Assembly (NCBI RefSeq): GCF_056712565.1
Contig: NZ_CM160072.1
DNA: 64,000 nt
Strand: one strand, 5' to 3'
The notes under the pieces were generated by a model. The model was not told the DNA's origin, did no database searches, and worked only from the letters and a program-made list of their open reading frames with translations. Shown piece after piece: positions 2,896 to 51,755 of the stretch. The translations under genes and the position numbers were made by a program. How positions within the stretch are numbered: position 1 is the stretch's first letter; each line of letters begins with the position of its first letter.

Positions 2896-4473
2896 TCATT
2901 CCCACTCAATAGTTGCTGGTGGCTTGCCGCTGATGTCATACACCACGCGGGAAATACCATTCACTTCATTGATAATGCGGTTGGAAACGCGGCCGAGGAA
3001 GTCGTACGGCAGATGTGCCCAGTGTGCGGTCATAAAGTCGATGGTTTCGACAGCACGCAGAGAGACAACCCAGTCATACTTACGACCATCGCCCATTACG
3101 CCAACGGAACGTACTGGCAAGAAGACGGTGAACGCCTGGCTGACTTTGTCGTACAGGTCCGCTTTACGCAGTTCTTCAATGAAGATGGCGTCAGCACGGC
3201 GCAGCAGGTCACAATACTCTTTCTTCACTTCTCCCAGAACACGAACGCCAAGGCCTGGTCCCGGGAACGGGTGACGGTACAACATGTCATACGGTAGGCC
3301 CAGCTCCAGACCAATCTTACGCACTTCGTCTTTGAACAGCTCTTTCAGCGGTTCAACCAGGCCCATCTTCATCTCTTTCGGCAGGCCACCCACGTTGTGG
3401 TGAGATTTGATGACGTGTGCTTTACCGGTTGCAGAAGCAGCAGATTCGATAACGTCAGGGTAGATGGTGCCCTGCGCCAGCCACTTCACGTCTTCCAGTT
3501 TCAGCGCTTCTTCATCGAATACTTCAACGAAAACGCGACCGATAATTTTACGTTTTGCTTCCGGATCGTTTTCGCCAGCCAGCGCTGACAAGAAGCGATC
3601 TTCTGCCGGTACGTGAACAATGTTCAGACCAAAGTGATCGCCAAACATATCCAGAACCTGCTCTGCTTCGTTGAGACGCAGCAGGCCGTTGTCGACGAAT
3701 ACGCAAGTCAGGTTTTTACCGATAGCGCGGTGCAACAGCATTGCGGTAACGGAGGAATCCACGCCACCAGAGAGGCCGAGGATGACTTTATCGTCGCCCA
3801 CTTGCTCGCGGATGCGGGCTACAGCGTCGTCGATAATTTTCGCTGGCGTCCACAGGGCTTCACACTGGCAGATATCACGCACAAAACGCTCCAGCATGCG
3901 CATACCCTGGCGGGTGTGAGTCACTTCCGGGTGGAACTGTACGCCATAGAAGCGTTTTTCTTCGTTGGCCATGATGGCAAACGGGCAGCTTTCGGTGCTG
4001 GCTACGGTGACGAAGTCGGACGGGATAGCGGTAACTTTATCGCCGTGGCTCATCCAGACGTCCAGCAGCGGTTTACCATCTGCGGTCAGCGCATCTTCGA
4101 TACCGCGAACCAGTGCGCTGTCGTTTACGACTTCAACCTGCGCGTAGCCAAATTCACGTTCGTTAGAGGCTTCAACGTGACCGCCCAACTGCATTGCCAT
4201 GGTCTGCATGCCATAGCAAACGCCGAATACCGGTACGCCTGCTTCAAAGACATACTGCGGCGCACGCGGGCTGTTTTCTTCGGTGGTGCTTTCCGGGCCG
4301 CCGGAAAGAATAATGCCGCTTGGATTGAAGTCACGAATTTGTGCTTCTGTCACATCCCACGCCCACAGTTCGCAGTAAACACCCAGCTCACGCACGCGGC
4401 GCGCAACCAGTTGAGTGTACTGAGAACCGAAGTCCAGAATGAGGATGCGATGCTTATGAATGTTTTCCGTCAT
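2896..4473 (-). CDS. guaA: GMP synthase (glutamine-hydrolysing)
   Basis: 525 aa; [36 protein letters not shown]... through ...[11 protein letters not shown] start. Confidence 0.97.
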
Positions 4474-47211: not shown

Positions 47212-47218
47212 TGACTCA

Positions 47219-47252
47219 GGCGGGTGATATCACTCACCCGCCCTCGCCTTTC
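47219..47252 (+). terminator. Stem-loop downstream of suhB (putative terminator)
   Basis: ggcgggtga-tatcac-tcacccgcc (9-bp stem) followed by ctcgcctttc. Confidence 0.35.
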
Positions 47253-47355
47253 AGGCGCTATTCCGAAATACTTCCTCACCGCTTTACTTTCTTTCGTCAC
47301 TCTCCCACCATCTTTCCCCGATTAATGGATGATAAAGAAGTCGCAAGGAAAGGTT

Positions 47356-48210: not shown

Positions 48211-48400
48211 CCCATGATCGCTAGCACGATAATCATTCACAAAACCACCTTAAGACATGCTAATCCACTGGTCAGAACAGTTTAAAATGAGAAAAATTCT
48301 GTGATGCTTGCCAACATTTCTGATGATTAGCATTCCCTTCGCCATTTCCCTGAGCAAACTTTAGCTATTCTTATCAATTATGCTTATGGGAGATCTACAG

Positions 48401-49681
48401 ATGATGCCTACGCTTGCTCCACCATCTGTCCTTTCGGCTCCCCAGCGCCGCTGCCAGATCTTGCTGACGCTCTTTCAGCCGGGGTTGACCGCCACCACGG
48501 CAACTTTCAGCGAGCTTAATGGTGTGGATGATGATATTGCCAGTCTTGATATCAGCGAAACAGGACGGGAGATCCTGCGCTATCATCAACTCACACTGAC
48601 TACTGGTTATGACGGTAGCTACCGGGTTGAAGGTACAGTGCTTAACCAACGTTTGTGTTTATTTCACTGGCTACGACGTGGTTTCCGTCTGTGTCCGTCA
48701 TTTATTACCAGCCATTTCACCCCCGCCCTGAAGAGTGAACTGAAGCGGCGCGGAATTGCGCGTAACTTTTACGACGATACCAATCTACAAGCGTTAGTGA
48801 ATCTCTGCTCCCGACGGCTGCAAAAACGCTTTGAAACGCGCGATATTCATTTCCTGTGTCTGTATCTGCAATATTGTTTGCTGCAACACCACGCTGGAAT
48901 TACGCCTCAGTTTAATCCGCTCCAACGTCGCTGGGCGGAATCCTGCCTTGAATTTCAGGTAGCGCAGGAAATTGGACGCCACTGGCAGCGTCGGGCGCTC
49001 CAGCCTGTACCGCCTGATGAGCCACTGTTTATGGCATTACTTTTTTCCATGTTGCGGGTTCCCGATCCACTGCGGGATGCGCATCAGCGGGACAGGCAAC
49101 TGCGTAAGTCTATCAAACGTCTGGTAAACCACTTTCGTGAGCTGGGAAATGTTCGTTTTTATGATGAACAGGGGTTATGCGATCAGCTTTATACCCACCT
49201 CGCCCAGGCGTTAAATCGCAGTTTGTTTGCCATCGGTATTGATAACACCCTGCCGGAAGAGTTCGCCCGCCTGTATCCACGCCTGGTGCGCACCACCCGC
49301 GCGGCGCTGGCTGGATTTGAAAGTGAATACGGCGTCCATCTTTCTGATGAGGAAAGCGGTCTGGTCGCGGTGATTTTTGGTGCCTGGCTAATGCAGGAAA
49401 ACGACCTGCATGAGAAACAGATTATTCTACTGACCGGGAATGATAGCGAGCGAGAAGCGCAGATTGAGCAGCAGCTACGCGAACTAACGTTACTGCCGCT
49501 CAACATTAAACATATGTCGGTAAAGGTATTTTTGCAGACAGGCGCTCCGCGCGGCGCGGCACTGATTATTGCTCCTTATACCATGCCGTTACCGCTCTTT
49601 TCACCACCGCTGATCTATACGGACCTGACGCTGACAACACATCAACAGGAGCAGATCCGCAAAATGCTCGAATCAGCATGA
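48401..49681 (+). CDS. csiE: Stationary-phase inducible protein CsiE
   Basis: 426 aa from MMPTLAPPSVLSAPQRRCQILLTLF...; ATG at 48401 with GGGAGA RBS. The 3' end overlaps the hcaT 3' end by 9 nt (convergent). Confidence 0.85.
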   Translation: MMPTLAPPSVLSAPQRRCQILLTLFQPGLTATTATFSELNGVDDDIASLDISETGREILRYHQLTLTTGYDGSYRVEGTVLNQRLCLFHWLRRGFRLCPSFITSHFTPALKSELKRRGIARNFYDDTNLQALVNLCSRRLQKRFETRDIHFLCLYLQYCLLQHHAGITPQFNPLQRRWAESCLEFQVAQEIGRHWQRRALQPVPPDEPLFMALLFSMLRVPDPLRDAHQRDRQLRKSIKRLVNHFRELGNVRFYDEQGLCDQLYTHLAQALNRSLFAIGIDNTLPEEFARLYPRLVRTTRAALAGFESEYGVHLSDEESGLVAVIFGAWLMQENDLHEKQIILLTGNDSEREAQIEQQLRELTLLPLNIKHMSVKVFLQTGAPRGAALIIAPYTMPLPLFSPPLIYTDLTLTTHQQEQIRKMLESA

Positions 49682-50812
49682 GGGAACAACTTTCGGGCGC
49701 AAAAACATTGCCGGAAGCGCCACCAGCGCCATCACCCAGAACACGCCGTGGCCGAGATATTGATACAGGAAACCGGCGAAAACGGTCATGATGGCGATAC
49801 TGCCGCCCATCGCGACGGCAGAGTAAACCGCCTGTAAACGGATGACTTCGCTACCCTGGCGAGCAGCAATATAGCGCATGGCAGCCAGGTGGCAGACCGT
49901 GAAGGTACCGCAATGCAGAATTTGCACCACTATCAACCACGGCAACGCCGTAGTTGCTCCCATAATGCCCCAGCGCACTACGCCGCAAATCGCCGAGATC
50001 AACAGCATATCGCGTGCACTACAACGGCGGAAAAGTTTATTACTCAGCGCAAAGATAATGACTTCCGCCACCACGCCCAGCGACCACAAATACCCCACCG
50101 CCGAGGCCGAGTAGCCAGCTGCCTGCCAGTAAATGGCGCTAAAACCGTAATAGGCCGCATGTGCCCCCTGCAATAAACAAACGCAGGCCAGAAAGCGCCA
50201 GTTCTGGCGAACCAACGCCAACCACGCAGACCAGCCGGTGCTCTCCTGCTGGCGGCTTGCCCCTTGTGGCTGAATCGTCGGACGGATGAGAAAGCCGAGC
50301 AGCATGGATGCCACGCCCAACGTCAACAGCGCGAGGATCACCCGATAATCAAACATACTGACCAGTTTGCCCGTCAGCGCCGAGCCAATGACAAACGCCA
50401 CCGAGCCCCACAGTCTCACTTTGCCGTAATCAAGCGGGAACTGCTTTTGCCACGTATTCGCCAGTGCATCGGTCAACGGTACCAGCGGTGAGAAAAAGAG
50501 GTTAAAGCCAATCATCACCAGCATCAGCCACGCTACGTGCGCCCCCGCCCAGAAGGCGACAGCAAAGAGAAGTGTCAGCAGTGCCAGCACGCGCAAGGCG
50601 GAAATCAGGCGGGAAGGATCGCTGACGCGGGGCGCGATGAGCAAACTCCCGAGGAAACGGGCAACCAGACCCGCCCCCAATAACAGGCCGATGGTTTCTG
50701 GCGTTAAACCAATCCCTTTAAGCCAGACGCTCCAGAAAGGTAGAAAAATGCCGTAACTAAAAAAGTATGTGAAATAGCCGAGCGCCAACCAGCGCGTGGA
50801 TTGCAAAACCAT
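49673..50812 (-). CDS. hcaT: MFS transporter HcaT (putative 3-phenylpropionate permease)
   Basis: 379 aa, 12 predicted TM segments, MVLQSTRWLALGYFTYFFSYGIFLPFWSVWLKG... Confidence 0.85.
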   Translation of the reverse strand: MVLQSTRWLALGYFTYFFSYGIFLPFWSVWLKGIGLTPETIGLLLGAGLVARFLGSLLIAPRVSDPSRLISALRVLALLTLLFAVAFWAGAHVAWLMLVMIGFNLFFSPLVPLTDALANTWQKQFPLDYGKVRLWGSVAFVIGSALTGKLVSMFDYRVILALLTLGVASMLLGFLIRPTIQPQGASRQQESTGWSAWLALVRQNWRFLACVCLLQGAHAAYYGFSAIYWQAAGYSASAVGYLWSLGVVAEVIIFALSNKLFRRCSARDMLLISAICGVVRWGIMGATTALPWLIVVQILHCGTFTVCHLAAMRYIAARQGSEVIRLQAVYSAVAMGGSIAIMTVFAGFLYQYLGHGVFWVMALVALPAMFLRPKVVPSC

Positions 50813-51015
50813 GAGTCCCTCCCGTCAGGAGGCGTTAGTCTGAGGTTAATCGAATGTTGGTGCAAGTTGAAAAATAAGAATATTCGAGCCTGCTTCCTGA
50901 CGGTTATCCTGCATATCAGGAAATGACAAAAAAGAGCGGCCCACAACACAACATGTAAAAAAGAACGATGAAACAGGTGAAAATCGCAATTTATTGAACT
51001 GACAAACTCATGTGA

Positions 51016-51048
51016 GACGGATAAGGCGTGCATGTCGCATCCGGCAGG
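51016..51048. repeat. REP element in the hcaT-yphA spacer
   Basis: gacggataaggcgtgcatgtcgcatccggcagg. Confidence 0.5.
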
Positions 51049-51180
51049 AAACAATAAGCACATTGTCAGCCATCTGCGTTATGCCGTTATACCAGAAACG
51101 AATATCTCAACGCCTGGGCGTGGCGAGGTACCAGAGTGTGTATTACGTTTAAATCACATCATCTTGCAAAGGGATTGGTT

Positions 51181-51603
51181 ATGAACTCACTACGTTATTT
51201 TGATTTTGGCACTGCCCGCCCCGTTTTATTATTAATTGCCCGTATCGCCGTGGTCTTAATTTTCATTATTTTTGGTTTTCCCAAAATGATGGGCTTTGGC
51301 GGTACGGTCCAATATATGGCCTCGCTGGGCGCACCAATGCCGATGCTGGCAGCGATTATTGCGGTAGTTATGGAAGTGCCCGCCGCGATATTAATCGTGC
51401 TTGGCTTTTTCACCCGTCCGCTGGCGGTGCTGTTTATTTTCTACACGCTGGGTACGGCGGTGATTGGCCACCATTACTGGGATATGACCGGCGATGCGGT
51501 TGGGCCAAATATGATTAATTTCTGGAAGAATGTCAGTATCGCTGGCGCATTCCTGCTGTTGGCAATTACCGGGCCGGGGGCGATTTCTCTCGATCGGCGT
51601 TAG
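51181..51603 (+). CDS. yphA: DoxX-family inner membrane protein YphA
   Basis: 140 aa from [28 protein letters not shown]...; ATG at 51181 with AGGGATTGG RBS. The track ORF has a 15-codon extension. Confidence 0.85.
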
Positions 51604-51607
51604 GAAA

Positions 51608-51755
<148 letters not shown>

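What the first reader, a model, noticed from the sequence alone, without database searches (positions are those of the whole stretch)
49673..49681. Convergent overlap of the csiE and hcaT 3' ends
The plus-strand csiE stop lies inside the last codons of minus-strand hcaT (9-nt overlap) with no room for terminators between them, implying convergent transcripts that read into each other (possible mutual antisense interference).
Basis: seen in the sequence. Interest (0 to 1): 0.2.

Follow-up and report, generated by a model that had tools for sequence, protein, structure and literature searches.

The report
Ordinary 9-base csiE/hcaT tail overlap
Two E. coli genes on opposite strands (csiE and hcaT) really do share their last 9 bases with no terminator between them, but this is an ordinary, already annotated and already published kind of gene junction, with no evidence that it regulates anything.

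Summary
csiE (+, 48401-49681) and hcaT (-, 49673-50812) overlap by 9 nt (TCAGCATGA), with both stop codons inside the overlap. RefSeq annotates the same coordinates in this strain (E. coli ATCC 11775) and in K-12. The 61-nt junction is identical in 5054 of 5424 complete E. coli genomes.

Across 36 species of more than a dozen enterobacterial genera, csiE and hcaT are almost always tail-to-tail. The spacing is -14, -9, -6, -4 or 0 nt. Only three loci have a gap, and each gap holds an inserted palindromic element. So the compact junction is old, but the overlap itself drifts. The two stop codons sit in a roughly 12-nt non-conserved tail region.

No convincing intrinsic terminator, significant RNA structure or Rfam family lies at or near the junction. 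Read-through into the neighbour is therefore expected, probably ended by Rho. The pair is already listed among 165 convergent "excludons" of E. coli MG1655 (ExcludonFinder, NAR 2025).

Functional interference is unshown. hcaT is a notably invariant qPCR reference gene. Published dsRNA in csiE maps to its 5' half, near internal antisense start sites, not to the junction.

Verdict: real, ordinary, already known.

The parts
48401..49681 (+). csiE coding sequence (stationary-phase-inducible protein CsiE, 426 aa); stop TGA at 49679-49681
   Evidence: ORF. NCBIfam NF008597 at 777 bits, with the profile aligned from ORF residue 8, which is the annotated start. RefSeq annotation.
49673..50812 (-). hcaT coding sequence (3-phenylpropionate MFS transporter, 379 aa); the complement of its TGA stop is at 49673-49675
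   Evidence: ORF. TIGR00902 at 708 bits and NF008346 at 625 bits. RefSeq annotation.
49673..49681 (.). The 9-nt tail-to-tail overlap TCAGCATGA. The + strand reads Ser-Ala-stop and the - strand reads Ser-Cys-stop, with codons in register.
   Evidence: The 61-nt context is identical in 5054 of 5424 E. coli genomes.
49664..49679 (.). Small 5-bp palindrome ATGCT-cgaatc-AGCAT spanning the junction. On the - strand it is followed by only UUUG. It is too weak (2 G-C pairs) and too poorly conserved to count as a terminator.
   Evidence: Seen in the folds (z-scores 0.09 and -0.76). It is broken in E. whittamii L005 and in L006 (ATACT) and absent in Citrobacter and Salmonella.
49700..49727 (-). Weak terminator-like match (5-bp stem, 8-nt loop, then AATGTTTTTG). 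It lies inside hcaT, 25-50 nt upstream of the hcaT stop, so it is implausible as the hcaT terminator.
   Evidence: The scan found 11 such sites in the region against 6.4 +/- 2.8 in shuffles.
49916..50136 (+). C-rich, G-poor (C/G about 2) stretch of the untranslated csiE read-through RNA, antisense to hcaT. It is a candidate Rho-loading region (inferred).
   Evidence: 78-nt window C/G profile.
49309..49425 (-). C-rich, G-poor (C/G 1.9-2.1) stretch of the untranslated hcaT read-through RNA, antisense to csiE. It is a candidate Rho-loading region (inferred).
50813..50900 (-). hcaT upstream region. It is retained and 99% identical to K-12 although the neighbouring hcaR-hcaEFCBD cluster is gone, so hcaT keeps its own promoter-proximal DNA.
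   Evidence: window 50600-50900 = L040 10301-10601. Published hcaT promoter and reporter data are in PMC10249474.

Best explanation
This is an ordinary compact tail-to-tail junction between two independently transcribed genes.

The conserved core of CsiE (...IRKMLE) and that of HcaT (...LRPKV) end only about 12 nt apart on the DNA. Each reading frame runs through a few non-conserved tail codons until it meets a stop. In Escherichia the hcaT stop (complement TCA) happens to lie to the left of the csiE stop (TGA), which gives a 9-nt overlap. Small indels and point changes move the stops around between lineages.

No dedicated terminator exists. Each RNA polymerase therefore reads past its stop into the antisense strand of the neighbour. 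That RNA is untranslated, so it is most likely ended within a few hundred nucleotides by Rho (C-rich, G-poor stretches start about 230-250 nt downstream on both sides). Occasional head-on collision and 3' trimming probably also contribute. The two mRNAs are therefore complementary over at least 9 nt, and probably over hundreds of nt.

Both genes are weakly expressed, so the regulatory consequence is probably negligible.

Shown: the overlap, its annotation, its conservation and drift, and the lack of terminator or structure. Published: transcript overlap in K-12. Inferred: Rho as the terminating agent, the length of read-through, and the absence of a meaningful regulatory effect.
For: - **Overlap and frames:**. 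The annotation is identical in ATCC 11775 and in K-12.
- **Within the species:** the junction is present in 5424 of 5426 E. coli genomes, and identical over 61 nt in 5054 of them.
- **Across species:** in 36 species-level loci the gap is -14 in 8 loci, -9 in 11 (also -9 in the two E. coli RefSeq records L001/L002), -6 in 5, -4 in 8 and 0 in 2. It is +38, +89 or +186 in 3, and one locus has no hcaT in range.
- **Tail residues:** those beyond CsiE 'LE' and HcaT 'RPKV' are variable.
- **Stop movement:** a 3-nt TAA insertion alone removes the overlap in L004.
- **Gaps:** the three positive gaps are filled by strongly structured palindromic inserts (z = -4.8, -3.1, -5.5). The E. coli junction is unstructured (z = 0.09 and -0.76).
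- **Terminators and RNA families:** no terminator-like site lies downstream of either stop, and no Rfam family matches.
- **Candidate Rho-loading stretches:** rut-like C>G windows are.
- **Literature:** 58-75 convergent overlaps exist in E. coli, and only 20% of the genes involved have a predicted intrinsic terminator. csiE-hcaT is listed in the MG1655 excludome.
- **Simulation:** with cores 12 nt apart, overlap is expected 98.9% of the time.
Against: - Thirty-two of the 35 loci with hcaT in range keep a gap of 0 or less across more than a dozen genera. This could reflect selection for the arrangement rather than mere tolerance plus deletion bias.
- The csiE-hcaT adjacency survives even where the hca catabolic operon is deleted. 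That hints at some linkage between the two genes.
- Rho involvement is predicted from base composition only. No 3'-end or bicyclomycin data for this locus were found.
- ExcludonFinder's authors regard such pairs as regulatory units.
Confidence: 0.72

Rival explanations
1. The junction is a functional excludon. It is kept terminator-free so that transcription of one gene represses the other in cis, by RNA polymerase collision and/or RNase III cleavage of the mRNA duplex. For example, sigma-S/cAMP-CRP induction of csiE in stationary phase would damp hcaT, or the reverse.
For: - csiE-hcaT is listed among the 165 convergent excludons of MG1655, detected in at least 50% of 58 RNA-seq sets.
- The compact junction and the adjacency are conserved across genera.
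- Both genes have stationary-phase links. csiE's is from its name and from memory of Marschall & Hengge-Aronis 1995. For hcaT, promoter-up alleles affected long-term stationary-phase competition under oxidative stress.
- A characterised E. coli precedent exists in mscL-arfA.
Against: - The excludon call is automatic for any two expressed genes whose CDSs overlap.
- hcaT mRNA is among the most invariant in E. coli across growth stages.
- p19-captured dsRNA in csiE maps to window 48403-49066 beside internal antisense start sites, not to the junction. No hcaT entry appears in the held tables, though these are truncated.
- In the same study, convergent 3' overlaps gave far fewer RNase III dsRNA reads than divergent ones.
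- Three lineages tolerate insertion of strong hairpin elements between the genes, and two have a gap of 0.
Confidence: 0.15
2. Cryptic intrinsic terminators embedded in the coding sequences stop each transcript close to its stop codon, so the real RNA overlap is only tens of nucleotides. The candidates are the 5-bp ATGCT/AGCAT hairpin plus UUU for hcaT, and the 49727-49700 hairpin.
For: - The small palindrome at 49664-49679 is followed on the - strand by UUUG.
- A terminator-like match lies at 49727-49700 on the - strand.
- Literature: about 20% of genes in convergent overlaps carry a predicted intrinsic terminator inside the partner gene. TransTermHP predicted overlapping terminators for 146 of 165 E. 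coli excludons.
Against: - The palindrome has 5 bp, only 2 G-C pairs and 3 trailing U. Its fold energy is indistinguishable from shuffles. It is lost in E. whittamii L005 and in L006, and in all non-Escherichia loci.
- The 49727 site lies upstream of the hcaT stop, so it would produce non-stop mRNA.
- Nothing terminator-like lies on the + strand downstream of csiE until 51384.
Confidence: 0.1
3. The overlap is an annotation or sequence artefact, and the true stops do not overlap.
For: None found. Only the csiE start differs between the raw ORF (48380) and the annotation (48401).
Against: - Stops are fixed by frames that are homology-supported to the last residues.
- The sequence is identical in thousands of independently sequenced genomes.
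- Related species show the same kind of overlap with different stop codons.
Confidence: 0.02

Closest known systems
Short convergent (tail-to-tail) CDS overlaps of prokaryotic genes, explained by stop-codon mutation or drift (Lillo & Krakauer 2007, PMC2174442; Huvet & Stumpf 2014, PMC4161906)
   Same: - Opposite strands with 3' ends overlapping by a few nt.
- Both stops lie in the overlap, in one of the three known phases (123:321).
- Usually no intrinsic terminator.
- The overlap length changes between relatives through stop movement (-14, -9, -6, -4, 0 here).
   Different: Nothing substantive. The 9-nt in-register overlap is less common than the 4-nt TTAA/CTAG-type overlap, which is what the Kosakonia, Leclercia, Cedecea and Silvania orthologues have.
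Excludons: neighbouring opposite-strand genes with overlapping transcripts (concept from Listeria; E. coli map in ExcludonFinder, PMC12288877)
   Same: It is a convergent neighbouring pair whose transcripts overlap. The pair is explicitly listed in the E. coli MG1655 excludome.
   Different: - Antagonistic expression and RNase III processing at the overlap have not been shown for this pair.
- Indirect data point the other way: hcaT is invariant, and no junction dsRNA appears in the held p19 tables.
- Here the overlap is CDS-to-CDS, not a long UTR overlap produced by a regulated alternative promoter or terminator.
mscL-arfA convergent pair of E. coli (PMC10070815)
   Same: It is a tail-to-tail enterobacterial gene pair with complementary 3' regions and enriched co-localisation in Enterobacteriaceae.
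   Different: For mscL-arfA, deleting arfA raises mscL mRNA more than 2-fold and complementation restores it. No such experiment exists for csiE-hcaT.
Bidirectional intrinsic terminators and programmed head-on RNAP collision between convergent genes (Wang, Watters, Ju & Liu, bioRxiv 10.1101/2022.10.23.513370)
   Same: Convergent genes with closely apposed 3' ends, where head-on collisions are possible.
   Different: That mechanism requires a stem-loop element between the gene boundaries. No such element exists here.

Membership tests
Convergent overlapping gene pair (tail-to-tail CDS overlap) | Two genuine protein-coding genes on opposite strands | tested here: met
   Both proteins pass NCBIfam curated cut-offs (CsiE 777 vs 304 bits; HcaT 708 vs 699 and 625 vs 259). 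Orthologues occur in 36 species.
Convergent overlapping gene pair (tail-to-tail CDS overlap) | The 3' ends, stop codons included, share nucleotides | tested here: met
   The shared stretch is 49673-49681, 9 nt.
Convergent overlapping gene pair (tail-to-tail CDS overlap) | The overlap involves non-conserved C-terminal tails and varies among relatives (stop-codon drift) | tested here: met
   Gaps of -14, -9, -6, -4 and 0, with variable tail residues beyond the conserved cores.
Excludon | Transcripts of the two neighbouring genes overlap | not testable with these tools
   No expression data were available here. Published: the pair is listed in the MG1655 excludome. It also follows logically from the CDS overlap whenever both genes are transcribed.
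Excludon | Expression of one gene antagonises the other (mutually exclusive expression) | not testable with these tools
   There is only indirect literature evidence: hcaT is invariant across growth stages, which speaks against strong antagonism.
Excludon | dsRNA or RNase III processing across the overlap region | tested here: inconclusive
   The p19 supplementary tables held here list csiE clusters only at window 48403-49066 and contain no hcaT entry. The tables were truncated when stored.
Bidirectional intrinsic terminator | G+C-rich hairpin flanked by an A-tract and a U-tract between the convergent genes | tested here: not met
   There is no intergenic space and no terminator-like site downstream of either stop. 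Junction folds score z = 0.09 and -0.76.
Rho-dependent terminator | Untranslated, C-rich, G-poor, weakly structured RNA (rut) downstream of the stop, and sensitivity to bicyclomycin | tested here: inconclusive
   C/G of about 2 at 49916-50136 (+) and 49309-49425 (-). No functional data were found.

The most novel reading that the evidence does not exclude
The terminator-less csiE/hcaT junction is conserved across Enterobacteriaceae and retained even in strains that have lost the hca catabolic operon. On this reading it is a selected cis-regulatory device: entry into stationary phase (csiE induction) tunes HcaT-mediated phenylpropionate uptake through polymerase collision or duplex formation. 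That would link two stationary-phase and oxidative-stress functions.
Probability: 0.08. Interest if true: 0.3.

Novelty: already known. Interest (0 to 1): 0.07.

Why it matters
It matters little as a discovery. The overlap is in every RefSeq annotation of E. coli, and the pair is already named in a published map of overlapping transcripts.

It has two modest uses:
- **As a caution.** Deleting csiE can damage hcaT; one published Keio primer does exactly this (PMC9431181). hcaT is widely used as a qPCR reference gene, yet it has a convergent, stationary-phase-induced neighbour reading into it.
- **As an illustration.** It is a clean textbook example of how stop codons drift within a tiny spacer while a compact junction persists for a very long time.

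Tried and rejected
- **Intrinsic terminators.** The consensus scan and the folds of both read-through RNAs found nothing credible.
- **The ATGCT/AGCAT palindrome.** I looked at it as a possible mini-terminator. I rejected it because it is weak, not conserved, and a by-product of the Met-Leu-Glu-Ser-Ala codons.
- **Inverted-repeat search at the junction**. It found only two unrelated short palindromes.
- **Rfam at a permissive E-value**. No family matched at the junction.
- **Published 3'-end and Rho data.** The Dar & Sorek supplement is not held, the ExcludonFinder supplement is not held, and a text search for csiE with Rho/terminator terms found nothing specific.
- **Artefactual start or stop.** Rejected.
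- **A CRP-like site upstream of csiE** (TGTGATGCTTGCCAACA, 48300-48316). The match to the consensus is too weak to claim from sequence alone.
- **Genome-wide census of convergent gaps.** I did not run one in this strain and relied on published counts. The 50-kb sample has four convergent pairs, with gaps of 63, 159, -9 and 31 nt.

Full report
**What is there.** The window is 100% identical to Escherichia coli ATCC 11775 (NZ_CP033092.2) over the region tested. On the + strand an ORF ends ...CTC GAA TCA GCA TGA, with its stop at 49679-49681. On the - strand an ORF ends ...CCC TCA TGC TGA, and the complement of its stop occupies 49673-49675. The two coding sequences therefore share 49673-49681 (TCAGCATGA), 9 nt, with codons in register. 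Each gene's stop codon is read as a Ser codon (TCA) on the other strand.

The + ORF is CsiE (NCBIfam equivalog NF008597, 777 bits, profile 1-425 of 426). The - ORF is the 3-phenylpropionate MFS transporter HcaT (TIGR00902 at 708 bits, NF008346 at 625 bits, aligned to the last residue). RefSeq annotates exactly these ends in this strain and in a K-12 derivative. Only the csiE start differs: the raw ORF begins at 48380, while the annotated and profile-supported start is 48401.

**How general it is.**
- The region is present once in 5424 of 5426 complete E. coli genomes.
- A 61-nt stretch centred on the junction is identical in 5054 of them and has 1-3 mismatches in the other 370.
- A scan of one genome per species with CsiE returned 36 loci from Escherichia, Citrobacter, Salmonella (arizonae, diarizonae), Pseudenterobacter, Intestinirhabdus, Kosakonia, Leclercia, Pseudescherichia, Enterobacter, Silvania, Dryocola, Cedecea and Buttiauxella.
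- In 35 of them hcaT lies convergently right behind csiE.

Extending both frames to their stops gives these spacings:

| Gap (nt) | Loci | Where |
|---|---|---|
| -14 | 8 | Buttiauxella |
| -9 | 11 | Escherichia, the C. amalonaticus/sedlakii group, Pseudenterobacter, Intestinirhabdus |
| -6 | 5 | other Citrobacter, Salmonella |
| -4 | 8 | classical TTAA/CTAG/TTAG/CTAA type |
| 0 | 2 | L004, L020 |
| +38, +89, +186 | 3 | L023, L022, L032 |

The table counts the 36 scanned loci only. The two E. coli RefSeq records fetched separately (L001, L002) also show -9.

The conserved protein ends are CsiE ...IR-x-(M/I)LE and HcaT ...(L)RP(K/R)V. The residues beyond them are variable tails. In L004 a 3-nt TAA insertion alone converts -9 to 0. 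The three positive gaps consist of inserted, strongly structured palindromic elements (fold z-scores -4.8, -3.1 and -5.5). From memory of the consensus sequences, they look like REP/BIME-type elements (L022, L023) and an ERIC-type element (L032).

So the compact, terminator-less junction is ancient. The overlap itself is not a conserved sequence element. It is where two drifting stop codons happen to fall inside a spacer of about 12 nt.

**Chance.** I replaced the 12 nt between the conserved cores with random sequence and kept the real flanks. This gave an overlap in 98.9% of 100,000 trials, with a median overlap of 237 nt. The existence of an overlap is thus what chance gives for two genes packed this tightly. 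What is maintained is that both stops come immediately after the conserved cores.

Published censuses count 58 (PMC2174442) or 75 (PMC4161906) convergent overlapping pairs in E. coli. Only about 20% of the genes involved carry a predicted intrinsic terminator. In the 50 kb around the locus, the four convergent pairs have gaps of 63, 159, -9 and 31 nt.

**Termination and read-through.**
- The consensus scan finds no terminator-like site on the + strand between the csiE stop and 51384.
- It finds none on the - strand downstream of the hcaT stop as far as 47200.
- The only nearby match (49727-49700, - strand) is weak and lies upstream of the hcaT stop.
- Folding 220-240 nt of each read-through RNA gives energies no better than shuffles (z = -0.9 and +0.3).
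- The junction itself is unstructured (z = 0.09 and -0.76).
- A 5-bp palindrome (ATGCT-cgaatc-AGCAT, 49664-49679) followed by UUUG on the - strand is too weak, and it is lost in E. whittamii L005, in L006 and in all other genera.
- No Rfam family matches at the junction, even at E <= 1.

Both transcripts must therefore run into the neighbour's antisense strand. That RNA is untranslated, and C-rich, G-poor windows (C/G about 2) begin about 235 nt downstream of the csiE stop (49916-50136) and about 250 nt downstream of the hcaT stop (49425-49309). I infer Rho-dependent termination a few hundred nucleotides in. This is a prediction from composition, not a measurement.

**What is already published.**
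- The ExcludonFinder study (NAR 2025, PMC12288877) lists csiE-hcaT among 165 convergent "excludons" of MG1655, found in at least 50% of 58 RNA-seq data sets. It supports overlapping transcripts. The classification is almost automatic, though, for two expressed genes whose CDSs overlap.
- The practical consequence of the overlap has been noted too. One Keio csiE deletion primer removes the 3' end of hcaT (PMC9431181).

**Does it regulate anything?** Nothing found here shows that it does.
- hcaT was selected from microarray meta-analysis and qPCR as one of the three most invariant E. coli mRNAs across strains, temperatures and growth stages (PMC3110127). That is hard to reconcile with strong repression by a stationary-phase-induced convergent neighbour. 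The sigma-S/cAMP-CRP regulation of csiE is from my memory of Marschall & Hengge-Aronis 1995, not checked here.
- In the p19 dsRNA-capture study (PMC7373196), csiE does have dsRNA clusters. They are at U00096.2 2663548-2663955 and 2663459-2664122, associated with Thomason antisense start sites at 2663579, 2663957 and 2664156 on the - strand. Mapping two of the reported 22-mers gives an offset of 2,615,056. That places the clusters at window 48492-48899 and 48403-49066, and the start sites at 48523, 48901 and 49100.
- The documented antisense pairing in csiE thus lies next to internal antisense start sites in its 5' half. It stops about 600 nt short of the junction. hcaT does not appear in the held tables, though these are truncated.
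- The same paper reports far lower dsRNA read density at convergent than at divergent overlaps.
- Three lineages tolerate hairpin elements inserted between the genes, and two have a gap of 0.

**Verdict.** The feature is an ordinary member of a well-catalogued class and is already annotated and published for this very gene pair. The residual novel reading is that the conserved adjacency and terminator-less junction form a selected growth-phase switch. It is not excluded, but I rate it at under 10%.

Noticed in passing
window 50901-51098 (between hcaT and yphA): The hcaR-hcaEFCBD phenylpropionate catabolic cluster (5.3 kb in K-12, L040 10602-15929) is absent. It is replaced by about 198 nt of unrelated sequence containing a REP-like palindrome (about 51018-51047). 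hcaT survives as an intact orphan with its 88 nt of upstream DNA. The same hcaT-yphA junction is found whole in 1044 of 5426 complete E. coli genomes. Another strain (EC77, L002) has a different deletion that truncates hcaT and hcaE.
   Followed up: partly
window 48403-49066, with - strand start sites at 48523, 48901 and 49100: Published p19-captured dsRNA clusters and Thomason antisense start sites (K-12 coordinates, mapped here) fall inside the 5' half of csiE. Upstream of 49100(-) the window has an extended -10-like TGaTAGACT (49115-49107). csiE therefore seems to have its own internal antisense RNA, independent of hcaT.
   Followed up: partly
L022 4237-4325; L023 4237-4274; L032 4152-4337: In Dryocola, Cedecea sulfonylureivorans and Buttiauxella sp. 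A111, the csiE/hcaT junction has been split by inserted palindromic repeat elements. By memory of the consensus they are REP/BIME-like and ERIC-like. Their fold z-scores are -4.8, -3.1 and -5.5.
   Followed up: partly
L004 about 3625-3635 (CP089930.1, labelled E. coli E69, CsiE 88% identical): A 3-nt TAA insertion after the CsiE Glu codon ends csiE two codons early. It turns the 9-nt overlap into an exact abutment with a gap of 0.
   Followed up: no
window 51572-51736, both strands (between yphA and yphB): There are sub-threshold Rfam matches to naRNA4 (RF02564; 43.8, 35.8 and 29 bits against a gathering score of 59.5). These are probably REP elements in the yphA-yphB convergent spacer.
   Followed up: no
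window 47218-47271, - strand (between suhB and yfhR): A sub-threshold Rfam match to Pseudomonas sRNA P26 (32.4 bits against a gathering score of 36; E = 6e-4). Its meaning was not examined.
   Followed up: no
window 48401-49681 (CsiE residues about 262-324): CsiE gives weak matches (E about 2e-4, about 20 bits) to the LicT and GlcT BglG-family antiterminator models. This suggests a PRD-like regulatory domain in this poorly understood protein.
   Followed up: no
L028 (uncultured Buttiauxella MAG): This is the only one of the 36 csiE loci with no hcaT detectable within 3 kb downstream. What replaces it was not examined.
   Followed up: no
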